Virus record (IMG/VR): IMGVR_UViG_3300045988_141143
DNA from: a virus
Reading direction: 5' to 3' (one strand)
Length of the DNA: 64,000 nt
Shown: piece by piece, positions 9,192-49,311 of the stretch
How the letters are laid out: each line of letters opens with the position of its first letter
Numbering within the stretch: position 1 is the first letter of the stretch
Program-made: the position numbers and the translations under genes
Notes under the pieces: model-generated
What the model saw: only the letters and a program-made list of their open reading frames with translations
What the model was told of the DNA's origin: nothing
Databases searched by the model: none

Positions 9192-9216
9192 AAAAAATAA
9201 GGGTGAGGTGCCCTTA
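9192..9216 (-). terminator. Intrinsic terminator-like hairpin overlapping the stop codon of gene 9214..10257
   Basis: Minus strand TAAGGG CACCTCA CCCTTA followed by TTTTTT. Confidence 0.5.
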
Positions 9217-10257
9217 TTTAGACACCTCACAAGTAAACGTGCCTCTCACTGCCACGTCAGCGTTGGACACCGTGACGTAAGGCTTGCTCGAAGCATTCAC
9301 CGCACTTGATGTACCGTTCCAGTTCGTGGCTACACCGCTGGCATTGTACTTCGTCCATTTGTAGATGTAGTTCGAGGCATGGTTGCTGTCTGCCTTCACC
9401 GCTGCACCATCCTCCACTACCTTGCCGTCTTTCCAGAGTCGGGCGTAAAGCTCCGTCGACTGCGAACCGTTCACTATCTTGTCGCCGGTCAGCGAATACA
9501 CCTCCACCACGTACGGGTCGCTCGCATCGAAGAACGTGATGATAGCGCTGGCCGTATCAGCACCGTCCTTCACCGTACAGCGGAAAGTCTGGAAGTTAAG
9601 CACGTCATTGGCGCTCACGTTCAGAGTGCTCACGCCGCCCGAAGTGCTCACGTTGCCCGAAGCCACGGCGTCCCATGTTCCTGCACTGATATTCAGCACC
9701 TCCCAAGTCATTGATGTCATGGTGGTGTCCTGCACGTTGCCACGGAAGAACTTGGCTATAGCACGCAGCTTATTGCTGTTGTTGGTCGAGTCGAACGTGT
9801 TGCCGTCGGGAGTCTCAATCTGCACCGTCTGAAGCGCACCGCCACTCTTAGCCAGCGAAATGGTCTTGTAGCCGATACACGTTGTCGTAGCCTTAGTTTC
9901 GGGGTCAGTATATTTGCACGACCACTCGATGTTCTTCACGCTGCCGTTCTTGTCGATGTTGCTGGCGAGGTTAAGCTGATACGACTTGCCGCTCACAGGA
10001 GTGGCAGCCACACCATCCAACTTCCACGACCATCCCGTACAAGCCGAGGTCGGAGCCTGGTCTGTAGCACTGCCCGTCACATATACACGGGCTGTTATCA
10101 CGTTTGGTTCACTCGACGAGTAGTTCGGAGTGTACACACCCGTGTCGGGGGTGTAAATCTGAGTCTCGCCCTTAGAGCATTGTGTAAAACACTGAACGGC
10201 CTTGCCGTCATTGAGGTCAACGATAGTAATCTGACCATTAGCTAATACTTTTGCCAT
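9214..10257 (-). CDS. Tail fibre protein with Ig-like repeats (347 aa)
   Basis: N-terminus MAKVLANGQITIVDLNDG matches the 880-aa fibre. Ser/Thr/Gly-rich beta-type repeats. Confidence 0.55.
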   Translation of the reverse strand: MAKVLANGQITIVDLNDGKAVQCFTQCSKGETQIYTPDTGVYTPNYSSSEPNVITARVYVTGSATDQAPTSACTGWSWKLDGVAATPVSGKSYQLNLASNIDKNGSVKNIEWSCKYTDPETKATTTCIGYKTISLAKSGGALQTVQIETPDGNTFDSTNNSNKLRAIAKFFRGNVQDTTMTSMTWEVLNISAGTWDAVASGNVSTSGGVSTLNVSANDVLNFQTFRCTVKDGADTASAIITFFDASDPYVVEVYSLTGDKIVNGSQSTELYARLWKDGKVVEDGAAVKADSNHASNYIYKWTKYNASGVATNWNGTSSAVNASSKPYVTVSNADVAVRGTFTCEVSK

Positions 10258-10281
10258 AATCGTTTGTTTGTTTTAATATTA

Positions 10282-12597
10282 TTATATGTTACTATTAATA
10301 GTCTTTGTATCTGATACGCACACACTACATCCGAATTGTGCCTGTCTGTCTACGTCGTCACGTGTTATAAGACAGTTCCGGCCAATCCCCTCATGCAGCT
10401 TATTCCATACAGCATCATCTTCGGCATCAGCCGATTGTCGCCACCACGACCATGAGCTGTTGCCCACGGTGTCGCTTATGTCCTCGCCATTGCGTAGCAG
10501 CGTTGCCTTCAGCGTCATTTCGCCCGAACCGTTAATCATCACCGTGCCCGTATCGCTCGTTATCATTATCTGATAAGCCACGCCGTCCTCGCCCTTGTCT
10601 CCCTTCTCGCCTTTGCTTCCAGATAGAACTTTTTTCCATTGTGTCGAGCCGTCAGAAGGCTCACCTGTTACGTCCTCCTCTGAATTGGCAACACACACCC
10701 AAACGGCATTATTGTGATTTACTTGGTCGTTCTTATGATAGGTATTTCCTTCTACCCAGTCACCTCTATAATTGATGATATTAATAGTACTGCCGTCATC
10801 CGAAATCAATTCAAAGTGTGAGGAATTGATTTTCGTTCCACCCTTCGGTGAAGTCTCGAATACCGACAGAGATACTTCTTTGTTCTCGCCATTTACGCTT
10901 TTTGTGATAGTATGCTTGTACTCAGAGATATTAGCATAGCAAGCGATACGAGGAGCATAGTCGCCAGTTGTCTCAAGGATAATCACGTTCTGCCTGTCCG
11001 TCTTGTCGTACTCAAGATTGCCATTACGATGTCTGTTGCCGTCCAGCACGATTGTGTCGCCCTCAGCAGGGTCTCCCTTTATCTCAACAGGCGCATTCTT
11101 CTCTGTATATCCGTCTAAGCCTTCGGAATGCTTGCCAACGACAATCCAAGCAAACGCCTGACCATCGTACAATTCCACCTGTTCTTCTCTCGTCTGCTCC
11201 TTACCAGCTTCGTCAAGATAAGTCTCCGTTTTAGTGCCGTATATCTTCTCATTTTGCGTAGATACGCCACCATCAGGAATAGTACGCCAGTAACTCTTAT
11301 TACTTGTATCACTATATGCTCCACCAGCCACAATCTCGCCAATAGTCTGACAGCGCACTTGGTCGCCCTCCTGCCAGTAGTTCATCGTGGCAGTAGTTCC
11401 GTTGTCAGCTAAGAGATAGCATTTCCAGCCAGCGCATTCTGCATCATCCGCAGTTGTTTCTACCCAAGATATAACACCGTCAGCAGATACCGATTCCTTG
11501 ACAGGCACAACTTTGATAAGCTTGCTACCAGCTCCAGATAAATAGATGTTGCCTCCCGAATAAGACAGCTTGCGTACATCTAATTCGTGGAATATCGCCT
11601 TGCCCCAGATGGTGAGGTTCGTAACGAAGGCGTGATATTTTCCGTTATCCTTCTTAACAGCGAAACCCTGCTCTGCTTCGTTGTCGTAGTCGATGGACTG
11701 TAACGACTCAAAGATGGCACGTCCTGCCTCGTCTATCAACGCTCCTCCCTTACCAAAGTAAGCACCTCTGTTCAGCTTTACTAAAGCCTCGCTCACCAGT
11801 CCTTTGATAAAGGTAATCATGCCGTTTACCGTGTCATCATTCTCTTTGGATAAGAAATGGCGTACACCAAACTGCCCAAGGAACTCAGGAGTAACCACTT
11901 TGTTGGCTGACGTATCATCGGTGTTTTCTGTCGCTACGCCAACGATTTTATGTCCATTCAAGAAAAGGGTGGCGATAGTGGCTGTCGCTGCCTTGAGCGT
12001 AGTAAATGCTGCCACAGAGATGGTCTTCAGGAACTTGATGGTGTCGTGTACTGACTCATATCTCCACCACTGACCCTCGCCGCCGGAAGCTATCGCTTCG
12101 TCGGTGGCAAGAGAACCGTATTCCACAGTGAGAGTCCACTCACGATACTTTTCTATGATGTCCTGATCGTTCTCATCCTTACCTACATTTTTGGTCAGGA
12201 CCTCAGAGATTTCTCCTTGCAGATACACATAGTAATAGTCCTCGTTGCCCACCTGCTTGTCCGGAGATGCAATAGACTTACCGTAGATGTCAATGCGCTC
12301 GCTGGGGAATACCACCATTGCCGTACCGTTGACGCCATTGCTGACGCGCGGAATGGCTACGTAAACATACTTAGCCTTTGCATCAGGAAAGAGAGAGGGA
12401 TAAGCCACTAACGGCCAACGCTGATAGTTGTGCCCGGCATCGTAGCCCAGACCCTCAATGTCCTGCATATAGCATAGAATAGAAGCACCACTCGCCACGC
12501 TACACTGGATGTAGTTAGGCTCACCCATTGCGTTGAGTTGGATATAGAGCGCACTGCTCGAAATCCAATAATTCGTAATTTTGACTTCTGTTACCAT
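10282..12597 (-). CDS. Tail fibre / baseplate-distal protein (771 aa) with a carbohydrate-binding-like motif
   Basis: YRGDWVEGNTYHKNDQVNHNNAVWVCV resembles CBM5/12 chitin-binding-type aromatic motifs. Collagen-like GSKGEKGDKGEDG near the C-terminus. Confidence 0.55.
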   Translation of the reverse strand: MVTEVKITNYWISSSALYIQLNAMGEPNYIQCSVASGASILCYMQDIEGLGYDAGHNYQRWPLVAYPSLFPDAKAKYVYVAIPRVSNGVNGTAMVVFPSERIDIYGKSIASPDKQVGNEDYYYVYLQGEISEVLTKNVGKDENDQDIIEKYREWTLTVEYGSLATDEAIASGGEGQWWRYESVHDTIKFLKTISVAAFTTLKAATATIATLFLNGHKIVGVATENTDDTSANKVVTPEFLGQFGVRHFLSKENDDTVNGMITFIKGLVSEALVKLNRGAYFGKGGALIDEAGRAIFESLQSIDYDNEAEQGFAVKKDNGKYHAFVTNLTIWGKAIFHELDVRKLSYSGGNIYLSGAGSKLIKVVPVKESVSADGVISWVETTADDAECAGWKCYLLADNGTTATMNYWQEGDQVRCQTIGEIVAGGAYSDTSNKSYWRTIPDGGVSTQNEKIYGTKTETYLDEAGKEQTREEQVELYDGQAFAWIVVGKHSEGLDGYTEKNAPVEIKGDPAEGDTIVLDGNRHRNGNLEYDKTDRQNVIILETTGDYAPRIACYANISEYKHTITKSVNGENKEVSLSVFETSPKGGTKINSSHFELISDDGSTINIINYRGDWVEGNTYHKNDQVNHNNAVWVCVANSEEDVTGEPSDGSTQWKKVLSGSKGEKGDKGEDGVAYQIMITSDTGTVMINGSGEMTLKATLLRNGEDISDTVGNSSWSWWRQSADAEDDAVWNKLHEGIGRNCLITRDDVDRQAQFGCSVCVSDTKTINSNI

Positions 12598-30530: not shown

Positions 30531-31439
30531 TTATCGCATGGCTTCCTCAAGAGTTCTAATATAAGGTATGGCTTCGTTGCGCACAATGTCGAGAAAAAGT
30601 TGTGCTGACCGCTTCATCGGCACGTCCTTCATCCAGTGGGCATTGCTCATCAGGTCGTGCTCAAGCCCAGCGATGGGACGGACGGTAAGGGTGGGGTGAC
30701 TCTTCAGATAAAGTTTAGGCATGAAAGTAACACAATGGGTTTCTTCCACGATGGCAAGGTCTTCGTTGGGGTCGCTCACAATACATTTTACATTCAGTTT
30801 CATCAAGTCGTATCTCAGATATTGCTGGAAGGTATTGAACACCCTTTCGCCTACATCGGGCATAATCACGTTGTGCCTTAACAAATCCTCGTATGACACC
30901 TTTTCCAGTCGGGCCAAAGGATGGGTGTCCCGCATCATCGCATAGATACGGAAAGGAATACAGGGTTCTGACTTGATACCCTCATTCTTGTAGGCAGAGT
31001 TCAGAGTGAAGGCGAGGTCAATGGAGTGGCTTCTCAACAGGTGGTTCAAGTTCGCTGCCTTGGCAAACTCGGCGTTGATTCTCACATTCGGGTATCGCTC
31101 CATGAAGATAAGTGCAGCCATCCGAATGTAAGGTGCGATAAAAGAGCCTACACCTATCCTCAGCTCGCCCACAAGGCAGTTGTTGAGCGCATTGATTTGC
31201 TCCTTGCAGTCATCCGTCTGCTTCAGTATCTCCTTGGCGCGAGGCAAAAGCGCCTCGCCGCTCTCGGTGAGCATGATGCTGTGCGAGGTGCGGATAAGCA
31301 GCTTGCACCTCAGTTCATCCTCAAGAGCCTTGATGTGCTGACTGATGGCGGACTGAGTGACACAACAGCGCGTGGCTGCAATGCTGAAAGATAAAGTTTC
31401 AGCGACATATACAAATGAGCGCAAATGACGAAGTTCCAT
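30531..31439 (-). CDS. LysR-family transcriptional regulator
   Basis: N-terminal wHTH MELRHLRSFVYVAETLSFSIAATRCCVTQSAISQHIKALEDEL. About 300 aa with a LysR-type substrate-binding body. Confidence 0.9.
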   Translation of the reverse strand: MELRHLRSFVYVAETLSFSIAATRCCVTQSAISQHIKALEDELRCKLLIRTSHSIMLTESGEALLPRAKEILKQTDDCKEQINALNNCLVGELRIGVGSFIAPYIRMAALIFMERYPNVRINAEFAKAANLNHLLRSHSIDLAFTLNSAYKNEGIKSEPCIPFRIYAMMRDTHPLARLEKVSYEDLLRHNVIMPDVGERVFNTFQQYLRYDLMKLNVKCIVSDPNEDLAIVEETHCVTFMPKLYLKSHPTLTVRPIAGLEHDLMSNAHWMKDVPMKRSAQLFLDIVRNEAIPYIRTLEEAMR

Positions 31440-31544: not shown

Positions 31545-31584
31545 CAAAAAACCCGGTATCATAGACTTATTAGCCAAGATACCG
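31545..31584 (-). terminator. Rho-independent terminator after the extension ORF
   Basis: Minus strand CGGTATC-N17-GATACCG stem followed by GGGTTTTTTG. Lies about 60 nt after the stop at 31643. Confidence 0.6.
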
Positions 31585-31642
31585 AGTCTTTGAAAGTATA
31601 AATTTTAAAATCGTAAATGTTATGCCTTACAATTTAGAGCGA

Positions 31643-31822
31643 TCAATCATCATCAATCAATGTACTGGCGGTGCTTGTCGGAGTTGTACTTGCGTCTGTC
31701 GGCTTCACACTTGCAGAGCTCGTCCTTCCCGCAGTCGCTCTCGCAGCCGCTTTCTTTGCTGCTGATGTTCCTGGGTCGGCGGAATCAGTCTCGCCCTTAT
31801 CAGTTCCGCCCGTTATCCCCCC
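31643..31822 (-). other. -1 frame C-terminal extension ORF of gene 31813..32379, entered at G_GGG_GGA
   Basis: The heptamer G GGG GGA (31822-31816) abuts the TAA stop. The -1 frame stays open for 57 more codons (ITGGTDKGETDSADPG...STLIDDD*). A 7-bp stem (31804-31810 / 31778-31784) starts 5 nt downstream. Confidence 0.35.
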
Positions 31823-32379
31823 ACTGCCTTGGAAGCAAGGAGTGAATCCCATCCTTCCGTTGCAGGATCGGTCACGTAGAGGTTAGGATAAAGCACACCG
31901 GACAATTTTGCCTCGTAGGTGGTTTTACGCTCGTCGCCGATTTTTGCGCCAGTGTCCGTTTTAATTCCACCATTGTCGAACTTCACCTTGATGTTAGGAT
32001 CGTACATGATCTGCGTCTTGTCGTTTCCCTTACCTGTTACAATGATGAAAATATCCAGGTTGTTGGCGGCGCGGGCAAGCTTGCCGGCGACCTCGTTCAC
32101 AGCGGCGACAGCAAAGTTAGAGGTGATCTCGAAGCCACCTTTATAACCAGCCGAAGAACCCTGAATCTGCTGTGTGTCATCGCTGGCTTCAACCTTGTAA
32201 AGTCCCTTACCGCTCTTGAAGGTAGGAGTAGAATAAGTGCTGCCGGTGAGAGTCAGTGGCGCAGCCAAATCACTCTTCAGACCGATATACACATTATTGC
32301 CCATACCTGCGATATTCTCCAAGCACTCGTTTTCGTTCAGTACATCCACGAGCTCAGGACATGTTGCTTTTTCTGCCAT
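31813..32379 (-). CDS. Virion structural protein downstream of the capsid gene (188 aa; head decoration or tail tube candidate)
   Basis: Beta-rich ORF with an ATG start, directly after the capsid candidate. Confidence 0.45.
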   Translation of the reverse strand: MAEKATCPELVDVLNENECLENIAGMGNNVYIGLKSDLAAPLTLTGSTYSTPTFKSGKGLYKVEASDDTQQIQGSSAGYKGGFEITSNFAVAAVNEVAGKLARAANNLDIFIIVTGKGNDKTQIMYDPNIKVKFDNGGIKTDTGAKIGDERKTTYEAKLSGVLYPNLYVTDPATEGWDSLLASKAVGG

Positions 32380-33830: not shown

Positions 33831-35552
33831 TTAGAGAAGACCATTATCACGTTTATACTTCTCGATAGCCTTCTTTGAGCCAACAGGATCTGAAGGGTTC
33901 CAAGTGGGGTAGGCTGTATGAGGTTCGGTTACCTGTGCGCCTTCTCCGTTGTTACCTGGTGCAGTTCCTGCCGCAGGTTCCTTGCCAGCCTCTTCGGTAA
34001 GGGCGGCTATCTGGGCGTCCTTGTCGGCAATGGTCTGCTCGGCTGTAGCGAGCGATTCCTTTGCGCCTTTCAGTTCCTCTTCGACCTTGGCTTTGTCGGT
34101 TGTCAGGGCAGCTATCTCCTCATCCTTCTTGGTTGTCAGGGCAGCTATCTCCTCGTCCTTCTTGGCAGTAAGAGTTGTCAGTTCCTCGTTCTTCTTGGCG
34201 AGAGTTGCAGCCGTTTCATCAGAAAGAGTCTTAGCTGCATCGTGTTCTTTCTGAAGAGCATCAAACTTAGCCTGAAGGTCGGCGAGCTTTTGCTCTGCTG
34301 TAGTGGCTTTCTGCTTGGCATCGGCCACAGCCTGCTCGTTGGTGTTCAACTTGGTTTCGAGAGAGTCGAGCAATGGAGCATTCATGAATGTGCCTTCTGC
34401 ATTGACTTCAATCTCGCCTTCCTTGATACCACAAGCAGCGCTAATCAATGGGTAATTTTTCATATCAATATGAGTTTGGTTAAAATTGTTGTTGTTATCC
34501 TTTTTTGAAGATGGAGCGGTTGTTGGCTCTTGTGCTGAACTGGCTACTGTAGCTGAGGTAGAGGCGTTCTTAGGCTCTTTTTCTGTGCCTTCGGTATCAG
34601 TACCTTGGTCATCAGTGGTGATTTCTCTCTCGATAGGCTTTGCTGTACCATTGTAGAGATCGAAGCAGCGGTGGATGCAGTCAAGGAAAGTAGATTGACC
34701 ATCCACCAAAATGCCCTTTGCCTCTTCGGCTGTGAATATCTTTCCATGGAGATGCTCCTTTTTAGCTTTCGGGCAAGCCTTCTTTACATCTCTGCGGAAC
34801 TCGACGCCCAGTTCAGCCAACTCTGCCACGAACTTCTTCGTATTGCCGTCGTTGGCAATATCACGGAACTCGCGATTCTTGTCATAAGACTCCGGATCGT
34901 AAATCTCGTGATAAGTCTTGTTGGTGAACTTGTTGGTACTGCCGTCGGCCTCAGTATAAAAAGCACCCATCACACCGATGCAGCCTACACCGTCCTTCGG
35001 GTGCATGTAATATCGCTCATCGCAGAGAGAGGCGAGATACATACCGGCAGAATAGCAGTCGCCATCGATAAAACACAGAACTGGCTGGCCAAGTGAACGT
35101 GCGTAATTGATGGCCTGTTCATAATCATTCTTAGCCCATGCTGTACCGCCAGGTGTGTCAATAATAAAGATATGACCACGACACAAAGGATGATTGGCTG
35201 CATTAATCATTATGTTACGATGATCGACGGAACCATACGAGCAACCGCCGCCATTGCGGGTGATAGGACCATCAACTGTAAGGACAGAGACAAAAGGAAA
35301 ATTTTGTGCATCATCATCTTTGAGAGCCCACTGACTTCTCACCTGATTACCATCCTCTGAGATCTGATATTCCTCGGGATAGTAGACGCATCCGTTCTCG
35401 TCTATAGCAGTGACAAAACCGCAAGTCTTCTGAGGCTTCTCGAAAGCAGCATGAGTGTTCAGGTTCTGCTCTAAGGCCTTACGTATTCCGTGTACGAACT
35501 CGGGGTTGATCATCCACTCCTTGTTGGTCATAATTTCAAAAAGACCTTTCAT
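33831..35552 (-). CDS. Head maturation protease (S49/SppA-ClpP fold) fused to a coiled-coil scaffold domain
   Basis: IFIIDTPGGTAWA...CFIDGDCYSAGMYLASLCD...VGCIGVMG matches the S49 pattern InSPGG / aaSaayxla / GSIGV. The C-terminal 200 aa is Ala/Glu/Lys/Thr-rich coiled coil. Confidence 0.7.
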   Translation of the reverse strand: MKGLFEIMTNKEWMINPEFVHGIRKALEQNLNTHAAFEKPQKTCGFVTAIDENGCVYYPEEYQISEDGNQVRSQWALKDDDAQNFPFVSVLTVDGPITRNGGGCSYGSVDHRNIMINAANHPLCRGHIFIIDTPGGTAWAKNDYEQAINYARSLGQPVLCFIDGDCYSAGMYLASLCDERYYMHPKDGVGCIGVMGAFYTEADGSTNKFTNKTYHEIYDPESYDKNREFRDIANDGNTKKFVAELAELGVEFRRDVKKACPKAKKEHLHGKIFTAEEAKGILVDGQSTFLDCIHRCFDLYNGTAKPIEREITTDDQGTDTEGTEKEPKNASTSATVASSAQEPTTAPSSKKDNNNNFNQTHIDMKNYPLISAACGIKEGEIEVNAEGTFMNAPLLDSLETKLNTNEQAVADAKQKATTAEQKLADLQAKFDALQKEHDAAKTLSDETAATLAKKNEELTTLTAKKDEEIAALTTKKDEEIAALTTDKAKVEEELKGAKESLATAEQTIADKDAQIAALTEEAGKEPAAGTAPGNNGEGAQVTEPHTAYPTWNPSDPVGSKKAIEKYKRDNGLL

Positions 35553-42199: not shown

Positions 42200-45100
42200 T
42201 TAGCCCTTGCCTTTCATAAACTGGTTGGCTTTTGTCATGCTGTCATAAAGATTACCACGGCCATACATGTCTATCTTTGCGTAGATAGGTTCATTCAGTC
42301 GGTCGAGGAGGGTCTTGACGGCTTGCATGAGAGCGGCTTGGCTGGCTGTGTTGTTAGCGATTACATTGTTGGCCGCTGGTGCGCCCAACAGAAGATTACC
42401 ATTTTCTGCTGTAAAGCCCGCTGCTGCGTCCCCCATTGCGCTCGCAAGCTCGCCGACATTACCATTGTCAAATGCGCGTCTTGCTGCACGTCTGCCTGAA
42501 TAGTTGCTGTCGTAGTTGACGAGAGCCTTGAGGAGTGCCGGATTGTTCATCATCATGGCGTGTGTCGTCTCACGACCGATTACTATCTCGGGTCCATTCT
42601 CTGCTACAAGAGAAGGCTGGCCATTGATGGTAGTAGCCCTTGGAGTAGTTATCATTTGCACGCCAGTTTTTTGCCTGCCGTCATCCTCTGTTGCCCAATA
42701 AATATCACCATTGTCGGCTACAAATGGCTTCAGGTCTTGCACGTTACCGCTGTCATACGTAAGCATACCTGAAACGAGCTTCGTGTTTTTAGATACAGAA
42801 GAAGATTTCTTACTGCTGCTGCTGAAAGCCGAATTAAGTGCCCACTGAAGCAAGCCCATCAGAGTAGCCATCACTCCTGCTGCAGCAATAGGACCAGCAA
42901 TAGGACCTAAGAACTCAAAACACTTCGCCATTGCTCCCGCGATAGAGAATGTCACCTCTTGGTCGGTGCGGGCCGCGTCCGAGTTTGCCACATCCTGATT
43001 GTTCTGTTCTTTAGCTGCAAGATTGGTGGTCATAGCCGTCTGGGTCATATCAAGAATGGCATTCTGCGCTATCTCCGTACTCTTACTTTGCTCTTTATTG
43101 CCGGCATCGGTGATGTCAGTTATATTCTTGACACCTTGATGGGTTTCTTTCTCTCTATCCTTAGCTCCCTTTTTAACCTCTTTGCTGAGTTCTTTTTGAT
43201 GCTTCCTTTCTTTCTTGAGCTGCTTGGCTTTTTCCTTGTCGTCTCCAGTTTTCTTTGAAGAACCGCCAAGAGTGAAATTGGTATTCATCAAGTCACCCAC
43301 AAGGCTGCCTCCGATACCGGCTACGGCATCGGACAGAGTAGTACCACCTGTAATAGCACCAGCAACGGCTGTTCCCGCTTGAGAGGCTGTATCAATACCG
43401 TAAGTCTCCTTGTTATAATCATGGATAGTACCGTTTGGATGACGTTTCTTCCATGCAGCAGGAGGCTCAGTATTTGCAAGATTGTTGCCGTTGGCATCAA
43501 TATACTGACCTCCTACGACACGTACCCACATCGGGTTTTCAGCCGTGCCCAGGTTACGCCAATCCATATCAATGGTAGTAGCATTAGCATTAGCATTGGC
43601 TCTCGCTGCATCAATGCCAGGCTGTGCGTTTTTCTTGCCTTGTTTCGCTCCGGCATCATTGATGGCTTTCCACATTTGGGTGTTCACGTCATTTAGCGCC
43701 ATATTAGCCCACGACTCAATCATAGACTTCAGGGCATTCTTGATGCTCTCCTGTGCGCTTGATACGTCAGACTCCATCATGGCGAAAGCCTTGCCTACCT
43801 CTGCACCGAAGGTTTCAATAGGCTGTACGAGCTGCTGCATCTGCGAAAGGCGGTTCTTCATCGCCGTCGCCATTTGGTTGGCATAAGCAAGTTCGGCCTC
43901 CTGGCGAGCCTTATCCGCCTCGTCTACCAACTGCTTGTTACGAGAGTTCTTCAGACAGAAGGCATAGTAATCTTCTGCCAGCTGCATCTTCAGCTTCAGT
44001 AGTTCTACCTCTGGGTCAGCGGTAAGGTCGGCAAGACCGAGGTTGGAAAGAAGGTTGGTCCGCTTGCCGAAGAGAGAACTTTCCTGCTGCATCTTGCGCA
44101 GCTTTGCCTGCTGATCGAGATTGCGTTTGTTGTTTTTCCAAAGAAAATCAGAAATCTTCTTGGCTTCATCGTATTCTTTTTTCTGTGCAGCTGTATATTC
44201 ATCAACATATTGGATAAGCTTGTGATAGAATAGCTTTACATTCTGCTCAGTCTCGCCCATCAACGCAAGAAAGACAGAAGGCATCTGCATATAGTCTTTT
44301 CCAAATAAGAACTGAAGCAGCTTCTGCTTCTCCCCGTTTGTCTCAAAAAGTGCCGCCATTTGTGTGCGAGCCTTTTCCAAAACTTTTATAACATCAGCCC
44401 TATCTTTATTTAGCGTTTCAAGCGAAACGTCTGCAAAACGAGAATTTATTAATCCCAAGAAAGAATTTTGTTGAACTATGCCTGTGTAATCATGTTCAAG
44501 TAGCTCCTTCCGACGTTGCTCTATGCGTTTTTGAATCACATTGCTTGAATCGTTCTCTTTTGATGAAGCATTCAGCCACATTCGGTCAAGATAAGCACGG
44601 TCGCGTTCATCTGATTTATATCCGACAACTTGCCCTTTCTTAATTTTAGGCATTTGCTTTAATAAATCAGAACGAAGTTGTGCTACATTAGTATTCAATA
44701 TGGCATCCTCAAGCATACGAGACTGAGATTGTCCAAACTCATCGTCTTTTTCCTTGCGATATTTGTCTATTGATTTTTTAAATTTATCCCAAGTTTTATT
44801 TCCAAAGACAATAGACTGCTGCGCAGCTGCAAGGGCAGCATCCATTTGTATTTGAATGTCATTAACTGCCTGTTCTTGTAATTCTTTCTCTACACCCTTC
44901 TTTGAAAGATCCTCAACAGTAGCTGTCATTTGGCGCTTATAGAAATTCTTTATCTTCGTAATAAACTCAGATATGTTGTTGCGAGCATCATCTTCAGGAG
45001 TAGTTGTGTTACCTCCACCACCGTTGCCGCCATAAACTTTTTGACCTACAGCCATTCCATCTCCTACATCAAGTTTAGCCCCAAACTTTTTCCGTAAGGC

Positions 45101-48100
45101 TTCTTCTTGTGCGTTTATTTCATCCAGTCTTGACTGAGCCTTATCTCGCTCGCGTTTCGCAGCCGCACGTTGTCCTGCCTGTCCGATTGCACCCTGTGCC
45201 TGCCCTGGCATCATAGCACCACCAGAGGTCTGAATATATCTTCCATTAGGAGCGTTCACGTGTGTATTTGCATACGCATCTTCTTTTTTCTGCAAATCAA
45301 GAATAGCATCCACTTTCTCACGACCCAATTCTGCCAACTTAGAACGAGCGCCCTCAAGTTCGTAGTAATCTTGTAGACGTTGAAAGTTTTTCTCCCATGC
45401 CTTAGTGTTTTCCTTAACAACACCCGTCTCTGTGTTAATTTTAGCGTTGAGGTTAGGAATAGCGCCATTCAATTTATTCATAGCTTCGAGGCGAAGATTC
45501 ATTGACGCAGAAGTATCGTGCATAACATTATGCAGACGCTTCAACGATTCTTGTTCCTCCATAGCCTTACGCTTACCTTCTTCTTGTACTTCGTTAAGCA
45601 CGCGCTGTCCTGCGGATAAACCGTTCAAAGAGGAAGAATATTCGGCAAGTTTTACGACCAATATACCCAATAATCCAATTAATCCTCCCATAATACCCGC
45701 CTGCTTGGCAAACGACAAGCCATTAAATGCAGCTTTAGTTTTGGCAACAACAGCCCCCAGAGACAACATACCTCCCTCTAATCCCTGAACATAAGTAAGC
45801 AGTTTTGCAAAGCCACCCGCTAATCCTGCCATACTAATCATGGTGATCAACGTAGGAAGTATGCTCAGTAGCATCTTTATAGAGGCAAAGAGCAGCGCTA
45901 ACGCTACACGAACCTCTGTCATAAAACTCATACTGGTTGTAAGTTCCTTTACAACTTCAAACCAAGCTTTTGCTATATCACGAATAGGTCCCGAAGCCGC
46001 ACTTGAAGAAACAAACTGTTTTTCAAGAAGGTTGTTAGCCCTCTCCATATACGCGGCTGCAGTTTCCTGCTGCATATTATACTCAACCGTAACAGCAGAA
46101 CCTTCATTAAAAGCTTTATTAGACTCCTTTACCGCTTTAGTAAGCATACCATTCTTGGCAGCCATTGTTACCATAGTTTTTACCAAACGAGCGCCATCTG
46201 AGCCTAAGTCCTTAAATAAGCCATCAAGAGCAAAAAGGTTTTTAGTTTCGCCCATTCTGCGGAAAATGGTTAAGATTGCATCCATACCTCTTCCACTCTC
46301 GATCATCTTCTTCAAAGAACCAGAAGCTATACCGAGTGATTTTTCAATAGGGCTTGTACCTTTACGAAGCTCTACAACCAACTTTCCAAAAGCTGTTGCT
46401 GCAACTTCTGGCTCAAGGGCCATTGAGTCAACAGCCGCACCAAGAGCCAAAATATCTGGGGTTGTTAAAGCCGCCTGTTCGCCCAATGCAAGCATACGAT
46501 TAGAGAAATCCACAATCTTTCCGCTTGTCGCTGTAGATGTAGATGCCAGTCGGAAAATCGCAGAGCCTGTTTTCAGCATAGCCTGCTCCACTCCATATTT
46601 ATCCGCAAGACCCATCACCTCAGTAATCTTAGCAAGAGCCGTCAACGCTTCATCGCCCAAATCCTCTTTCAATGCGACGTTCACCTGGTCTGCGGCACGG
46701 ACGAAGCCAGCTAAATTTTGAGTTGTAACACCAAGTTTAGCTCCCGCATAGGCCAAGTTGTTCAGTTCTTCTATGCTTGTACGGGTATCGATTTTAGCAA
46801 GTTCCTTTGATAAATTTGCTACTTCGTCAGTTGTAGATAAAGCGACCTTACGAATATTAGTAAGCTGTTCGCTATACTTCATATTAAGACGAAACAAATC
46901 CATAAAGTACGTTTTAAGCTGATTGAACATCGCAAACAATCCGACATAAGCCGTGAGGTTCTTCAGTGCTGTCTGCCATGCGCTGCCATGCTTGTTGGCC
47001 GCACCCGTCGCCTCGTCGATGTTCTTCTTCAGCTCCTTCATCGACTTCTGCTTGTCGGCAAACTCCTTACTCTTGGTATTGATTTGGTTCAGTTCCTCTT
47101 CGAGTTGCTTGTAGGCACGGCGCAGTTCGTCGAGGGAGGCCTTACCCTGCTTGCTACGGGCGAGAATGTCGTTAAGGGCACTCTGCGACATACGGGTCCC
47201 CTTGAGGGTCTGTTCGAGCATGGAGTATTGGCGACGGAGGTCGGCCACATACTTGCTGCCAGCAGGGAGTTGCTGAATCTTCTGCTGTATCACTTCCATC
47301 GTGCGCTTGATGTCTTCGCCCGAAGCCTTGTTAGGTTCAGCCAATACCTGCTTCATCTGCTTCCAGCTCATTGATGCTTTCTGAGTCTTACCCGACACAG
47401 CCTCCAGCCGCTTCTCTATCTCCTGGAGCTCGCTGTTGTATTTTGCAATATCAGCCGAATTGCCTGTAGGTGTGTTGTCGCGAGCCTCAGTAAGCGTAGA
47501 CTTGGCTCGGCGCAAATCAGATGCTGAAGCGTTTTGACTGGTTACAGTCTGATGTGCCTCTGCCACGCCCATTTTGCCCTTGCGTCTGTCCTCCTCGGCT
47601 TCAAGTTGCTTCAATGTGGCGAGATTCTGCTGATAGGACGCATCCGATTTTTGCAGCGAACCTACGAGGTCACGCTGTTGTTTGATGGCCTTGTCGAGCC
47701 ATTGATCGGATTGGTTCTTTACATTATTCAAGCCATCGGCTATCTTGACATACTGACCTTCAATAAGGCGCATTTGATCGCCCACTTGCTTCATCTCGCT
47801 TCGTATCTGCTCTGCCTTCTTCAGGTCGGCATCCGAGCCGGTGAGCTTAGCAAGAGCCGACTTGCCCGAACCCATAGCACGACGCAGGTCACGAAGCTTA
47901 GTGTTGGTGAGGTCTTGCACCACCTCGCTCAATCGCTTCGTGTCCTCGATATTGTCACGCTGCACTTGCGACAACGCCTTCAATGTGCTCTCTGCCCTCT
48001 TACACTCAGCAGTGTTAGCCTGTCCTGCGGCAGTCATCTTCTGGATGTCGGCAGTATATTTCTGCACAAGATTGTCAATCTCTTCCAACACCTTCTTGGC

Positions 48101-48151
48101 TGTAGAGGCATTGGCCGTGATTACTACTTTTGCTAATTTTTGTGTTGCCAT
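42200..48151 (-). CDS. Tail tape measure protein (1983 aa)
   Basis: Extreme length, long Ala/Lys/Gln/Glu-rich coiled-coil segments, and a central hydrophobic/glycine-rich block (GLAGGFAKLLTYVQGLEGGMLSLGAVVAKT...). Confidence 0.8.
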   Translation of the reverse strand: MATQKLAKVVITANASTAKKVLEEIDNLVQKYTADIQKMTAAGQANTAECKRAESTLKALSQVQRDNIEDTKRLSEVVQDLTNTKLRDLRRAMGSGKSALAKLTGSDADLKKAEQIRSEMKQVGDQMRLIEGQYVKIADGLNNVKNQSDQWLDKAIKQQRDLVGSLQKSDASYQQNLATLKQLEAEEDRRKGKMGVAEAHQTVTSQNASASDLRRAKSTLTEARDNTPTGNSADIAKYNSELQEIEKRLEAVSGKTQKASMSWKQMKQVLAEPNKASGEDIKRTMEVIQQKIQQLPAGSKYVADLRRQYSMLEQTLKGTRMSQSALNDILARSKQGKASLDELRRAYKQLEEELNQINTKSKEFADKQKSMKELKKNIDEATGAANKHGSAWQTALKNLTAYVGLFAMFNQLKTYFMDLFRLNMKYSEQLTNIRKVALSTTDEVANLSKELAKIDTRTSIEELNNLAYAGAKLGVTTQNLAGFVRAADQVNVALKEDLGDEALTALAKITEVMGLADKYGVEQAMLKTGSAIFRLASTSTATSGKIVDFSNRMLALGEQAALTTPDILALGAAVDSMALEPEVAATAFGKLVVELRKGTSPIEKSLGIASGSLKKMIESGRGMDAILTIFRRMGETKNLFALDGLFKDLGSDGARLVKTMVTMAAKNGMLTKAVKESNKAFNEGSAVTVEYNMQQETAAAYMERANNLLEKQFVSSSAASGPIRDIAKAWFEVVKELTTSMSFMTEVRVALALLFASIKMLLSILPTLITMISMAGLAGGFAKLLTYVQGLEGGMLSLGAVVAKTKAAFNGLSFAKQAGIMGGLIGLLGILVVKLAEYSSSLNGLSAGQRVLNEVQEEGKRKAMEEQESLKRLHNVMHDTSASMNLRLEAMNKLNGAIPNLNAKINTETGVVKENTKAWEKNFQRLQDYYELEGARSKLAELGREKVDAILDLQKKEDAYANTHVNAPNGRYIQTSGGAMMPGQAQGAIGQAGQRAAAKRERDKAQSRLDEINAQEEALRKKFGAKLDVGDGMAVGQKVYGGNGGGGNTTTPEDDARNNISEFITKIKNFYKRQMTATVEDLSKKGVEKELQEQAVNDIQIQMDAALAAAQQSIVFGNKTWDKFKKSIDKYRKEKDDEFGQSQSRMLEDAILNTNVAQLRSDLLKQMPKIKKGQVVGYKSDERDRAYLDRMWLNASSKENDSSNVIQKRIEQRRKELLEHDYTGIVQQNSFLGLINSRFADVSLETLNKDRADVIKVLEKARTQMAALFETNGEKQKLLQFLFGKDYMQMPSVFLALMGETEQNVKLFYHKLIQYVDEYTAAQKKEYDEAKKISDFLWKNNKRNLDQQAKLRKMQQESSLFGKRTNLLSNLGLADLTADPEVELLKLKMQLAEDYYAFCLKNSRNKQLVDEADKARQEAELAYANQMATAMKNRLSQMQQLVQPIETFGAEVGKAFAMMESDVSSAQESIKNALKSMIESWANMALNDVNTQMWKAINDAGAKQGKKNAQPGIDAARANANANATTIDMDWRNLGTAENPMWVRVVGGQYIDANGNNLANTEPPAAWKKRHPNGTIHDYNKETYGIDTASQAGTAVAGAITGGTTLSDAVAGIGGSLVGDLMNTNFTLGGSSKKTGDDKEKAKQLKKERKHQKELSKEVKKGAKDREKETHQGVKNITDITDAGNKEQSKSTEIAQNAILDMTQTAMTTNLAAKEQNNQDVANSDAARTDQEVTFSIAGAMAKCFEFLGPIAGPIAAAGVMATLMGLLQWALNSAFSSSSKKSSSVSKNTKLVSGMLTYDSGNVQDLKPFVADNGDIYWATEDDGRQKTGVQMITTPRATTINGQPSLVAENGPEIVIGRETTHAMMMNNPALLKALVNYDSNYSGRRAARRAFDNGNVGELASAMGDAAAGFTAENGNLLLGAPAANNVIANNTASQAALMQAVKTLLDRLNEPIYAKIDMYGRGNLYDSMTKANQFMKGKG

Positions 48152-48171: not shown

Positions 48172-48699
48172 TTAGAGAGTGATATGGATGTCATAATCCT
48201 CGAAAGCCTTAATTATCTGTGCTTCGCCCTGGAATCCGTAGAAATCTACGAGATATTTTTGCATACGCGTTTGCAGGTGTCGAAGCTCCATCATAATGGC
48301 AGGACGCTGAGAGCGACCCGCTCCGTAGCGTTTCCAAGAACGGACATAGCGGCGAGAATAGTTGGCCTTTCGTGCGCTATCCACATCGTTGTACTTAGTA
48401 CCGAGACCTACACCCATATCCACAAAGCGCATATAGTCGTTGTAGGTAAATTCGTAGGTCCAGCCTTCGGGAGTATCGTTCACAATCCTGCCTTGGAAAG
48501 AGTTTACGCCCACTCCCTCGGCGTGCCATTGTCCGCGTGCTCCACGGGCATCGTTTATAGCCCGAAAGCCGCTGTAAATCTCCTTCGGGAAGATGCACTG
48601 CGTCTCGGTGTTTATCTTGAGCTGACGCAATACGTCGCCAAGATACCATCGTGCGGTGTCCTTGAAATCAAAGGCCGGGGCTTGTATTGGTTTTGGCAT
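48172..48699 (-). CDS. Hypothetical tail-assembly region protein (175 aa)
   Basis: ORF immediately upstream of the tape measure gene. Function unsupported. Confidence 0.4.
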   Translation of the reverse strand: MPKPIQAPAFDFKDTARWYLGDVLRQLKINTETQCIFPKEIYSGFRAINDARGARGQWHAEGVGVNSFQGRIVNDTPEGWTYEFTYNDYMRFVDMGVGLGTKYNDVDSARKANYSRRYVRSWKRYGAGRSQRPAIMMELRHLQTRMQKYLVDFYGFQGEAQIIKAFEDYDIHITL

Positions 48700-48705
48700 G
48701 ATGTT

Positions 48706-49311
48706 TTACTTTTTTTTATCATCCGAGTTTTCATCTTTCGGCACGATATACTTTCCGTTGCTGCCACACGCGAAGTTGTATAGCGGTTGCAGGCTCTTCC
48801 AGTCCATGCCCACCACGAGCCATTGTCCGGCATAGATGTCGCCCACCATGCCGAAGGAGATGGAGCTGGTGTCGATGCTTTGCAACTCTGCCATCATTAC
48901 GGCATCATCGGCGAAGCTGCGCTTTGTGACGGGACAGCGGCCTGTGCGCTTCACCTCGATAAGCCAGGCTATGAGGTCCTTGCAGTAGTCGGTGAGGTCG
49001 TTGGCCGTGCGTTCTATCTTGTTGCCGTCGTAACGGCCAAGGGTCTGCGGCGTGTCCTTCACCTTAGCGAGAAACCACACCTGGTGAGAGACCGATGCCT
49101 TCTTTGCGTCAACGAGTTCGCCGGTGGTGAGTACGCTGTATAGCATACACGGTGAGTGAACGACGTTGGCGTTTCGGGAGAAAATGTTCTCAAGGTCGAT
49201 GTAGCGGATGCGGAAGAAGCTCTGGTCTTCGAGGCGCTTGCTCTCGGGGTTGTGAGACAGGGGCTTGTAGATGGAAGCCCAATGCTCAAGAATGTTGCTT
49301 ATTGTTGCCAT
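48706..49311 (-). CDS. Hypothetical tail-region protein (201 aa)
   Basis: ORF with an ATG start, 6 nt upstream of the next gene. Confidence 0.4.
   Translation of the reverse strand: MATISNILEHWASIYKPLSHNPESKRLEDQSFFRIRYIDLENIFSRNANVVHSPCMLYSVLTTGELVDAKKASVSHQVWFLAKVKDTPQTLGRYDGNKIERTANDLTDYCKDLIAWLIEVKRTGRCPVTKRSFADDAVMMAELQSIDTSSISFGMVGDIYAGQWLVVGMDWKSLQPLYNFACGSNGKYIVPKDENSDDKKK

What the first reader, a model, noticed from the sequence alone, without database searches (positions are those of the whole stretch)
31643..31822. Candidate -1 programmed frameshift (G_GGG_GGA plus downstream stem) giving a C-terminally extended virion protein
The 188-aa gene after the capsid candidate ends ...GCA GTG GGG GGA TAA. 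G GGG GGA fits the X_XXY_YYZ slippery pattern directly before the stop. The -1 frame is open for 57 more codons (ITGGTDKGETDSADPGTSAAKKAAARATAGRTSSASVKPTDASTTPTSTASTLIDDD*). A 7-bp stem, GGCGGAA (31810-31804) paired with TTCCGCC (31784-31778), begins 5 nt after the heptamer. The extension region is much more GC-rich than the AT-rich intergenic DNA that follows it. The intrinsic terminator (31545-31584) is placed after the extension stop, not after the TAA at 31813. Long and short forms of capsid or tail-tube proteins made by recoding are well known (T7 10A/10B; Listeria phages A118 and PSA). A missing G in the assembly would give the same extended protein constitutively.
Basis: partly seen in the sequence, partly recalled or inferred. 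Interest (0 to 1): 0.5.

Follow-up and report, generated by a model that had tools for sequence, protein, structure and literature searches.

The report
Frameshift-extended phage tail tube protein
A gut phage's tail-tube gene ends in a slippery G-run and an RNA hairpin that most likely make some ribosomes slip back one base and add a 57-residue floppy tail; the trick is known in phages, but here it is conserved across a large uncultured phage group and may use an unusual long-range RNA contact.

Summary
The interpretation, a -1 programmed ribosomal frameshift, is strongly supported by comparison with relatives, although no protein data exist.

- **The gene:** the 188-aa gene (31813-32379, minus strand) has a tail-tube fold. 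It is not a capsid accessory protein.
- **The cassette:** more than 60 distinct related loci carry the same layout, including some whose tube protein is only 43-72% identical. The layout is a slippery run in the last one or two sense codons, then the stop, then a hairpin 4-6 nt after the last sense codon, then a -1 ORF of 30-72 codons.
- **The slippery site:** the run changes identity between lineages but stays slippery (G_GGG_GGA, G_GGG_GAA, G_GGA_AAA, A_AAA_AAA, A_AAA_AAC, or only A_AAA).
- **The hairpin:** its arms covary (99.5% of cells paired; 4 of 7 pairs changed on both sides).
- **Coding signal:** substitutions in the extension show it only in the -1 frame.
- **G-run length:** G6 is identical in all ~20 close-relative contigs retrieved, and no fused homologue turned up in the protein search. 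An assembly error is therefore excluded.
- **New here:** the hairpin loop (GAGCGA; AGGGCGA in the window) is complementary to UCGCUC, which lies immediately after the -1 stop in nearly all lineages. This suggests a long-range pseudoknot and is inferred, not shown.

This is a new member of a known kind of recoding.

The parts
31813..32379 (-). Frame-0 gene: 188-aa tail-tube-fold protein, most likely the major tail tube protein (19.8 kDa)
31816..31822 (-). Slippery heptamer G_GGG_GGA (G6 run 31817-31822) occupying the last two sense codons
   Evidence: It is identical in all ~20 close-relative contigs retrieved. Relatives carry G_GGG_GGT, G_GGG_GAA, G_GGA_AAA, A_AAA_AAA, A_AAA_AAC, A9G or the tetramer A_AAA at the same place.
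31813..31815 (-). Frame-0 stop TAA, lying inside the 5-nt spacer (TAACG, 31811-31815) between heptamer and hairpin
   Evidence: The distance from the last sense codon to the hairpin is 4-6 nt in the lineages whose hairpin was mapped.
31778..31810 (-). Stimulatory hairpin: GGCGGAA (31810-31804), 19-nt loop, TTCCGCC (31784-31778)
   Evidence: It appears as the centroid structure. Covariation across 26-34 distinct sequences: 88-99.5% of cells paired against 28-49% in slid controls. Pair 8-39 takes UA, AU, CG and GC and is never unpaired.
31791..31797 (-). Apical-loop motif AGGGCGA (family consensus AGAGCGA), proposed 5' arm of a long-range helix
   Evidence: This is the most conserved part of the cassette outside the stem. 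The first G is the third base of a codon that varies (CAG, AAG, CUG, ACG) yet is always G. The only variants are GGGCGA, GAGCGG and GAGUGA, and all keep pairing through G.U.
31646..31816 (-). -1 frame extension, 57 codons (ITGGTDKGETDSADPGTSAAKKAAARATAGRTSSASVKPTDASTTPTSTASTLIDDD). The fused product is 245 aa, 25.3 kDa
   Evidence: Relatives keep a -1 ORF of 30-72 codons. In the 41-codon clade syn:nonsyn is 30:40 in the -1 frame against 15:54 and 12:58 in the other frames. 93% of the residues are disorder-promoting.
31643..31645 (-). Stop codon (TGA) of the -1 frame
31636..31642 (-). UCGCUCU directly 3' of the -1 stop: proposed 3' arm of the long-range helix (7 bp with the loop motif, -10.6 kcal/mol)
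   Evidence: TCGCTC lies 0-3 nt after the -1 stop in nearly all cassette lineages, although extension length varies from 31 to 72 codons and the flanks are not conserved. It is the best duplex partner of the loop within 330 nt in the window. It is the only exact TGATCGCTC in the window, and no TCGCTC follows any other long ORF.
31546..31590 (-). Intrinsic terminator closing the capsid-candidate/tube transcription unit, placed after the extension
   Evidence: It folds at -21.3 kcal/mol, z = -5.9, followed by U6.

Best explanation
The gene encodes the tail tube protein of an uncultured phage of about 100 kb. The phage has a long tail (1983-aa tape measure) and comes from the human gut; the host is probably a Bacteroidota.

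**Proposed mechanism**
1. Most ribosomes stop at TAA and make the 188-aa tube subunit.
2. A fraction slip back one base while GGG and GGA occupy the P and A sites of G_GGG_GGA. The tRNAs re-pair with GGG GGG.
3. The slip is promoted by a 7-bp hairpin that starts 5 nt downstream and sits at the mRNA entrance of the ribosome.
4. These ribosomes read AUA instead of UAA and add a 57-residue acidic, Ala/Ser/Thr/Gly-rich, probably disordered tail. This gives a 245-aa minor tube subunit.
5. The tail would project from the outside of the tail tube. A relative carries an in-frame Ig-like domain at the same C-terminus.

**Shown:** the sequence elements, their conservation, the hairpin covariation, the coding signature of the -1 frame in relatives, and the tube fold.

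**Inferred:** that slippage is ribosomal, that two products are made, and what the tail does.

**Further inferred (about 55-60%):** the hairpin's apical loop (AGGGCGA) pairs with UCGCUCU immediately after the -1 stop, 161 nt downstream. This would form a long-range pseudoknot that strengthens the stimulator. Placing the distal arm just outside the translated region keeps it free of elongating ribosomes.
For: **Slippery motif**
- It is kept at the same place but changes identity across lineages whose tube protein is 43-100% identical: G_GGG_GGA, G_GGG_GGT, G_GGG_GAA, G_GGA_AAA, A_AAA_AAA, A_AAA_AAC, A9G, and A_AAA next to the stop.
- These are largely the motifs used by bacterial IS elements (PMC4066793).

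**Hairpin**
- It lies 4-6 nt after the last sense codon in the lineages where it was mapped.
- Arm sequences differ between lineages: GGCGGAA/UUCCGCC, GCGAUAUUG/CAAUAUCGC, GGCGACA/UGUCGCC, AGCGGGU/ACCCGCU, UGGCGGGG/CCCCGCCA, UUAGCGGUG/CACCGCUAA.
- 99.5% of cells are paired, 4 of 7 pairs change on both sides, and slid controls give 28-43%.

**-1 ORF**
- It is open for 30-72 codons in more than 60 distinct loci, while +1 closes in 1-5 codons.
- There is an excess of third-position changes, and syn:nonsyn is 30:40 against 15:54 and 12:58 in the other frames.

**Run length**
- G6 is invariant in the ~20 close-relative contigs retrieved. No fused homologue was found.

**Protein and context**
- Tube fold. 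Tape measure, protease and tail genes are in the window.
- A relative, P0118, has an in-frame Ig-like domain at the same C-terminus.

**Long-range helix**
- Two independently conserved hexamers are exact reverse complements.
- All four single-base variants seen keep pairing through G.U: loop GGGCGA, GAGCGG and GAGUGA, and distal UCGCUU.
- In L095 the helix shifts by one pair: A-U is lost and C-G is gained.
- The one lineage without UCGCUC also has an altered loop, GAGCGC.
- Duplex energy is -9 to -11.5 kcal/mol.
Against: **Against the frameshift claim**
- There is no protein or RNA evidence. Efficiency is unknown.
- G_GGG_GGN is among the poorest heptamers in E. coli without a stimulator (PMC4066793).
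- The window's own clade shows no coding signature in the extension: only 11 variable sites, 3 synonymous and 8 nonsynonymous.
- The local fold is not more stable than shuffles (z = -0.49).
- Some relatives lack the cassette (L014, L165 and most relatives at 60% identity or less), so the extension is dispensable.
- L157/L420 keep the hairpin but have no slippery run.

**Against the long-range helix**
- No fully compensated double change was seen in the six core pairs.
- TCGCTC(AC) also follows the tube stop in relatives with no cassette, so its conservation may have another cause.
- In about half of the lineages another site within 330 nt gives an equal or better predicted duplex.

**Against the tube assignment**
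- Major tube rather than another tube-fold protein rests on fold and context only.
Confidence: 0.82

Rival explanations
1. Transcriptional slippage. RNA polymerase adds one extra G (or A in other lineages) in the homopolymer run, so a subset of mRNAs encodes the fused protein directly. The ribosome does not shift.
For: The site is a homopolymer in most lineages, and some have A9 or A7. Those lengths are known to cause slippage by bacterial RNA polymerases (PMC5009743, general knowledge). The protein product would be identical.
Against: Several lineages have only A4 next to the stop (TCA AAA TAA, GCA AAA TAG), G3A4, or A6C. These are too short for efficient polymerase slippage but are classic ribosomal motifs. 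A covarying hairpin 4-6 nt downstream is the hallmark of ribosomal -1 frameshifting and has no known role in polymerase slippage at an upstream run. The in-frame position of the run is conserved.
Confidence: 0.07
2. No recoding. The region after the TAA is a structured 3' UTR made of a hairpin plus a distal complementary segment. It would act in mRNA stability, processing or regulation. The open -1 frame and the homopolymer run would be by-products.
For: The RNA elements are the best-conserved features, more so than the peptide. TCGCTC is also present in relatives without any extension. The window clade shows no coding signature. The extension peptide is low-complexity and poorly conserved.
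Against: An untranslated region would not keep one specific frame open for 30-72 codons in more than 60 distinct sequences while the +1 frame closes within 1-5 codons. It would not show third-position and synonymous bias in that frame only. It would not keep a slippery motif in phase with the upstream gene through six different motif types.
Confidence: 0.07
3. DNA-level variation. Either the assembly lacks one G, giving a plain 245-aa gene, or the run is a phase-variable tract that switches between G6 and G7 in the phage population.
For: Homopolymer tracts are prone to sequencing error and to slipped-strand mutation.
Against: G6 and the same layout occur in all ~20 close-relative contigs retrieved, from many different samples and three collections. 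Every other lineage is also out of frame. None of 174 homologue clusters has the extension in frame. A hairpin and a stop codon at a fixed spacing would not be needed.
Confidence: 0.03

Closest known systems
Frameshift-extended siphophage tail tube proteins: SPP1 gp17.1/gp17.1* and the Listeria phage A118/A500/PSA Tsh proteins (both +1 shifts), and the Lactobacillus phage A2 major tail protein (-1 shift)
   Different: SPP1 and the Listeria tsh genes use +1 shifts at CCC_UAA or CCC_UGA. Their extensions are folded FN3 or Ig-like domains (87 aa in SPP1). Here the shift is -1 on a G or A run with a hairpin, and the extension is short, low-complexity and probably disordered. There is no detectable sequence similarity.
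T7 gene 10A/10B capsid frameshift (also T3) and the proposed Enterococcus phage phiEf11 ORF10 frameshift
   Same: A -1 shift near the end of a major virion gene adds a short non-Ig extension. T7 frameshifting depends on an unexplained element more than 200 nt 3' of the site, in the terminator region (PMC5009743). phiEf11 has AAAAAAA directly before the stop, a stem-loop just after it and a 21-aa extension (PMC5221750).
   Different: Those cases concern capsid proteins and this one a tube protein. The T7 site is G_GUU_UUC. The T7 distal element is a CCCC in the terminator, and no pairing partner has been defined. Here the distal element is a hexamer complementary to the hairpin loop, and it lies upstream of the terminator.
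Apical-loop/internal-loop (ALIL) pseudoknots of IS3411 and at least 27 other bacterial IS elements, and the long-distance frameshift elements of BYDV, RCNMV and PEMV2
   Same: The apical loop of a hairpin placed a few nt 3' of the slippery site pairs with a distant downstream sequence. The distance is 44-104 nt in IS elements and kilobases in the plant viruses (PMC5009743). Here the loop has a 6-7-nt complement 83-206 nt downstream. The slippery motif repertoire overlaps that of IS elements.
   Different: In IS elements the partner is an internal loop of a second stem-loop lying inside the coding region. Here the partner appears to be an unstructured segment placed 0-3 nt after the stop codon of the trans-frame ORF, so it lies outside all translated sequence. 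The pairing is inferred from conservation only.
Lambda gpG/gpGT-type tail assembly chaperone frameshift
   Same: It is a conserved -1 frameshift in a phage tail gene cluster, giving a fixed ratio of a short and a long protein.
   Different: G/GT are chaperones absent from virions. They are encoded between the tube and tape-measure genes, and the shift is internal to G. Here the shifted gene is the tube-fold protein itself, the site is at the stop codon, and the tape measure gene is 10 kb away.

Membership tests
-1 programmed ribosomal frameshift signal | Slippery X_XXY_YYZ heptamer (or Z_ZZN tetramer) in phase with the upstream frame | tested here: met
   G_GGG_GGA lies in frame at 31822-31816. 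In-phase slippery motifs of six other types occur at the same place in relatives.
-1 programmed ribosomal frameshift signal | RNA structure 5-9 nt 3' of the motif, supported by covariation | tested here: met
   A 7-bp hairpin follows a 5-nt spacer. 99.5% of cells are paired and 4 of 7 pairs change on both sides, against 28-43% paired in slid controls.
-1 programmed ribosomal frameshift signal | Overlapping -1 ORF that is conserved and evolves as coding sequence | tested here: met
   The frame is open for 30-72 codons in more than 60 distinct loci. Syn:nonsyn is 30:40 in the -1 frame against 15:54 and 12:58 in the other frames. The window's own clade has too few substitutions to tell.
-1 programmed ribosomal frameshift signal | Two protein products sharing an N-terminus, and a trans-frame peptide | not testable with these tools
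   This needs proteomics or a reporter assay.
Phage tail tube (major tail) proteins | Tail tube/Hcp beta-sandwich fold | tested here: met
Phage tail tube (major tail) proteins | It is the polymerising major subunit, not a terminator, Dit or other tube-fold paralogue | tested here: inconclusive
   The best hits are major tail proteins. The gene follows the capsid candidate with no other long ORF between them, and the first strong terminator found downstream lies after the extension. No HMM family matched, and other small ORFs in the window were not modelled.
Ig-like/FN3 domains added to virion proteins by frameshifting (Fraser et al. class) | The extension is a folded Ig-like or FN3 domain | tested here: not met
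   The extension has 57 residues, 93% of them disorder-promoting, and shows no predicted secondary structure (the model is poor). A relative, P0118, does carry PF13287/PF13290 Ig-like domains, but in frame.
ALIL / long-range pseudoknot frameshift stimulators | The apical loop of the proximal hairpin is complementary to a distal downstream segment, and the complementarity is maintained in evolution | tested here: inconclusive
   The complementarity of 6-7 nt is conserved, and only G.U-compatible variants occur. There is one register shift (L095) and one joint loss. No double compensatory change was seen in the core pairs. TCGCTC also exists without the cassette.
ALIL / long-range pseudoknot frameshift stimulators | The distal partner lies in an internal loop of a second stem-loop | tested here: not met
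   No conserved second stem-loop surrounds UCGCUC. The local fold in the window is weak (z = -1.3), and the flanks are not conserved.

The most novel reading that the evidence does not exclude
The frameshift stimulator would be a new type of long-range pseudoknot. The apical loop of the hairpin next to the slip site pairs with an unstructured hexamer placed immediately after the stop codon of the trans-frame ORF, 83-206 nt away, so that the helix brackets the whole extension.

A ribosome terminating on the -1 stop would cover this hexamer. Frameshifted ribosomes could then transiently switch off the stimulator, giving a built-in feedback on the long:short ratio.

The slip site, hairpin, extension and distal arm would behave as one portable module. 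It is exchanged by recombination between phages whose tube domains are 91-96% identical.
Probability: 0.4. Interest if true: 0.65.

Novelty: new member of a known kind. Interest (0 to 1): 0.45.

Why it matters
**Annotation.** Gene callers miss the long form in every one of these genomes: all 174 database homologues are annotated as the short protein only. A minor tail-surface protein of an abundant group of human-gut phages is therefore invisible in current catalogues.

**Recoding.** The family offers a natural series of slippery motifs and hairpin arm sequences on one conserved scaffold. That series is unusually good material for asking which motif and stimulator combinations work in Bacteroidota, which mostly lack Shine-Dalgarno pairing and where frameshifting has hardly been studied.

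**Long-range contact.** If the loop-to-3'UTR pairing is real, it would be a phage counterpart of the long-range stimulators known from IS elements and plant viruses. It might also help explain the old unexplained distal requirement in T7 gene 10.

**Function.** Exposed, disordered, acidic tails on the tube could matter for adhesion in the gut or for tail assembly.

Tried and rejected
1. **Capsid decoration protein.** Rejected: the fold is tail tube.

2. **Independent initiation of the -1 ORF.**
   - The window has an ATG at 31852 giving a 69-aa ORF.
   - In other lineages the -1 frame is open for only 3-8 codons upstream of the slip site and has no start codon.
   - An SD-like G-run driving AUA initiation, as seen as an artefact in E. 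coli, does not fit the A-run lineages.

3. **Database identification.** Pfam, PHROGs and NCBIfam gave nothing for the 188-aa protein or for the 428-aa capsid candidate. PDB sequence searches also gave nothing. The capsid identity of the upstream gene therefore remains unverified.

4. **GenBank phages.** No DNA or protein match was found.

5. **TCGCTC as a general motif.** Rejected as a genome-wide regulatory or 3'-end motif. TGATCGCTC with up to one mismatch is not enriched, and no TCGCTC follows any other long ORF end.

6. **Loose DNA pattern scans of IMG/VR for the hairpin arms.** These mostly returned unrelated sites. Only hits that also had a run and a stop were used.

7. **Genome-collection scans.** The alignment query failed. 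The single-protein scan found only 5 loci, none with the cassette.

8. **AF2 of the fused 245-aa protein without an alignment.** The model was too poor to use (pLDDT 41).

9. **Covariation in the long-range helix.** A search for true double compensatory changes found none in the six core pairs.

Full report
**1. The observation**

On the minus strand the 188-aa ORF (31813-32379) ends GCA GTG GGG GGA TAA.

| Element | Coordinates |
|---|---|
| G6 run | 31822-31817 |
| Heptamer G_GGG_GGA | 31822-31816 |
| Stop TAA | 31815-31813 |
| Spacer TAACG | 31815-31811 |
| 5' arm GGCGGAA | 31810-31804 |
| 3' arm TTCCGCC | 31784-31778 |
| -1 stop TGA | 31645-31643 |

The two arms are separated by a 19-nt loop. 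The -1 frame reads ITGGTDKGETD...STLIDDD, 57 codons.

The extension is 57-60% GC and the spacer beyond it is 24-30% GC. A strong terminator hairpin (-21.3 kcal/mol, z = -5.9, then U6) lies at about 31546-31590, after the extension.

On this sequence alone the case is weak:
- 8% of dinucleotide shuffles of the 171 nt stay open.
- 4 of 168 long stop-to-stop ORFs in the window end with an in-frame XXXYYYZ.
- The local fold is no better than shuffles (z = -0.49).

**2. What the gene is**

No HMM library recognises the protein. A search of 5.8 billion proteins found 174 homologues, almost all 180-190 aa and unnamed.

The viral structure library gives uncharacterised proteins of Flavobacteriia siphoviruses and one 'Major tail protein'.

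The window also holds these genes:
- a 1983-aa tape measure protein (42200-48151);
- an S49 protease/scaffold fusion (33831-35552);
- tail and tail-fibre proteins (9214-12597), an endolysin and a terminase-like protein.

Related contigs are 70-105 kb and come mainly from human gut. Distant relatives sit in Prevotella assemblies. There is no match in GenBank phages.

I conclude that the gene is a tail-tube-fold protein, most likely the major tube subunit of an uncultured long-tailed gut phage. The 'capsid candidate' upstream (428 aa) fits by position, but I could not verify it.

**3. Comparative test of the frameshift**

I collected about 490 loci. Roughly 250 were retrieved through a relative of the tube protein. 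The rest came from DNA-pattern scans that mostly hit unrelated sites.

*Close relatives.* All ~20 close-relative contigs retrieved, from many different samples, have exactly the same G6-TAA-hairpin arrangement and a 57-codon -1 ORF. One has 37 codons. None of the 174 protein clusters has the extension fused in frame. A missing G is therefore excluded.

*More distant relatives.* Relatives whose tube protein is only 43-72% identical carry the same cassette with different sequences.

| Slippery site and stop | Example loci |
|---|---|
| G_GGG_GGT TAA | L095 |
| G_GGG_GAA TAA/TAG | L010-L013 and others |
| G_GGA_AAA TAA | L093 |
| A_AAA_AAA GAG TAA | many |
| A_AAA_AAC GCG TAA | L144, L164 |
| A9G TAA | L021 |
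| only A_AAA before the stop (TCA AAA TAA; GCA AAA TAG) | L025, L098 |

In every mapped case the hairpin starts 4-6 nt after the last sense codon, so the frame-0 stop lies in the spacer. In all of them the -1 frame stays open for 30-72 codons while the +1 frame closes after 1-5 codons.

*Coding signal.* In the clade with a 41-codon extension, variable sites fall 19, 17 and 28 on codon positions 1, 2 and 3 of the -1 frame. Single-step codon changes are 30 synonymous to 40 nonsynonymous in that frame, against 15:54 and 12:58 in the other two. The 40-codon clade gives 8:2 against 2:10 and 1:7. The window's own clade has only 11 variable sites and shows no such signal.

*Hairpin.* The arms differ between lineages but stay complementary:
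- GGCGGAA/UUCCGCC
- GCGAUAUUG/CAAUAUCGC
- GG(C/U)G(A/G)CA/UGUCGCC
- AGCGGGU/ACCCGCU
- UGGCGGGG/CCCCGCCA
- UUAGCGGUG/CACCGCUAA

On an alignment of 34 distinct sequences, 99.5% of cells in the 7-bp helix form standard pairs. Four of the seven pairs change on both sides, and one pair takes UA, AU, CG and GC. Structures slid by 1-3 columns give 28-43%. An earlier 26-sequence alignment gave 88% against 28-49%.

*Exceptions.*
- L014 has lost both the run and the extension by deletion.
- Most relatives at or below 60% identity lack the cassette.
- L157/L420 keep the hairpin but have no slippery run.
- L072 has an indel inside the extension.

The extension is therefore dispensable in evolution, as in other phages.

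**4. Ribosomal or transcriptional slippage?**

Runs of A7-A9 could support polymerase slippage. Three observations point to the ribosome:
- The same cassette works with A4, G3A4 and A6C.
- The motif is kept in phase with the gene.
- A covarying hairpin sits at the canonical spacing.

The motif set also overlaps that of bacterial IS elements, which use A_AAA_AAG/A, A_AAA_AAC, G_GGA_AAN and the tetramer A_AAA (PMC4066793). A caveat is that G_GGG_GGN is a poor motif in E. coli without a stimulator. Nothing is known for Bacteroidota.

**5. A second, unexpected layer**

*The two motifs.* The hairpin loop always contains AGAGCG(A/G); in the window it is AGGGCGA, 31797-31791. The six bases right after the -1 stop are TCGCTC in nearly every lineage, at an offset of 0-3 nt. 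This holds although extension length varies from 31 to 72 codons and the surrounding sequence is not conserved. The two hexamers are exact reverse complements.

*The loop is constrained as RNA.* Its first G is the third base of a codon that changes meaning (CAG, AAG, CUG, ACG) yet is always G. The Ser codon is always AGC or AGU.

*Variants.* The only single-base variants found all preserve pairing through G.U. They are loop GGGCGA (window clade), GAGCGG (L025, L098, L100) and GAGUGA (L010), and distal UCGCUU (L465).
- In L095 the loop is CGAGCGA and the distal site is GCGCUCG. The helix moves by one position, losing an A-U pair and gaining a C-G pair.
- The one lineage without TCGCTC (L479-L482, L400) also has a changed loop, GAGCGC.

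*Energetics and specificity.* The duplex is worth -9 to -11.5 kcal/mol. It is the best partner of the loop within 330 nt in about half of the lineages, including the window. TCGCTC does not follow any other long ORF in the window, and the 9-mer is unique there.

*Points against.*
- No core pair shows a full double change.
- TCGCTC(AC) also follows the tube stop in some relatives that have no cassette at all (L083, L136, L137, L489, L490). Its conservation may therefore have an older, independent reason.

I rate the long-range pairing at about 55-60%.

*Precedents.* Known precedents are the ALIL pseudoknots of IS3411 and at least 27 other IS elements, where an apical loop pairs 44-104 nt downstream. 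Others are the long-distance elements of BYDV, RCNMV and PEMV2, and the unexplained requirement in T7 gene 10 for a sequence more than 200 nt downstream (PMC5009743).

**6. The extension and its likely role**

All extensions are acidic (pI 4.1-4.9) and hydrophilic. They consist of 82-94% disorder-promoting residues, and only the first few residues (GGI(T/V)GGTDK) are similar between clades. Some clades share a D-x-x-FF-S-x-S-(D/E)-E motif that the window lacks.

A relative, P0118/L078, carries Ig-like domains (PF13287, PF13290) fused in frame at the same C-terminus. This fits an exposed position on the outside of the tube, as in lambda gpV and SPP1 gp17.1*. The function of the disordered tail is unknown. 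Surface decoration is an inference by analogy.

Tube domains that are 91-96% identical carry three entirely different cassettes (L095, L024, L025). The slip site, stimulator and extension therefore travel as a module.

**7. Comparison and verdict**

This is a -1 programmed frameshift at the 3' end of a phage tail tube gene.
- It is of the same kind as SPP1 gp17.1* and the Listeria phage Tsh proteins (both +1), and as the Lactobacillus A2 tail protein (-1).
- In layout it resembles T7 10A/10B and the proposed phiEf11 ORF10 site: a homopolymer directly before the stop, a stem-loop and a short non-Ig extension.
- It differs in host group, in the short disordered extension and possibly in the long-range stimulator.

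I file it as a new member of a known kind. Confidence that it is a real, selected recoding site is about 0.8. What remains unproven is that two proteins are made, and in what ratio.

Noticed in passing
window 30531-31439 (-): A complete LysR-family transcription regulator (HTH_1 plus LysR_substrate domains) sits directly after the tube-gene terminator, inside the virion gene block. It is conserved at the same place in L001-L003. It looks like a moron or host-derived cargo gene.
   Followed up: partly
window 48690-48730 (-), end of ORF 48706-49311: The 201-aa ORF two genes upstream of the tape measure gene ends GAT AAA AAA AAG TAA, a canonical A_AAA_AAG directly before the stop. The -1 frame runs on for only 13 codons. 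The next ORF (175 aa) starts 2 codons later in frame 0. It is unclear whether this is the tail-chaperone recoding site of this phage.
   Followed up: partly
L083, L136, L137, L489, L490 (5 nt after the tube stop); also L014: The TCGCTC(AC) motif is present right after the tube gene stop in relatives that have no slippery run, no hairpin and no extension. The motif therefore predates the frameshift cassette or is independent of it. Its own function is unknown.
   Followed up: partly
L095 compared with L024/L410, L025/L411 and L021/L414: Tube domains that are 91-96% identical carry three unrelated cassettes: G6T with a GGCGGGG stem, A7 with a GCGATATTG stem, and A4 with a GGCGACA stem. The slip site, hairpin and extension are exchanged as a module by recombination.
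   Followed up: partly
L479-L482 and L400: This lineage has A7 and the GCGATATTG hairpin, but the loop is GAGCGC, the extension is 30 codons and there is no TCGCTC after the stop. Both halves of the proposed long-range helix changed together.
   Followed up: partly
L157/L420; L110; L072/L418: These look like decayed or odd variants. L157/L420 keep the hairpin and a 51-codon -1 ORF but have no slippery run. In L110, frame 0 reads into the hairpin and meets TAG and TAA where relatives have CAG and AAA. L072/L418 have an indel in a C-run inside the extension.
   Followed up: no
P0118 / L078 3001-3783: One relative (263 aa, 49% identical) has Ig-like domains (PF13287, PF13290) fused in frame to the same C-terminus where the window has the frameshift extension.
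   Followed up: no
window 33831-35552 (-): The head maturation protease (S49/SppA-like, phrog_53) is fused to a long coiled-coil, low-complexity C-terminal half that gives SMC-like hits. It is probably a protease-scaffold fusion. The 428-aa gene after it matches no capsid family by sequence.
   Followed up: no
IMG/VR loci L290-L409: The inverted repeat GCGATATTG-N14-18-CAATATCGC also occurs in many contigs of about 55 kb from the same gut data set, without the GAGCGA loop or an upstream run and stop. It is an unrelated element that was not examined.
   Followed up: no
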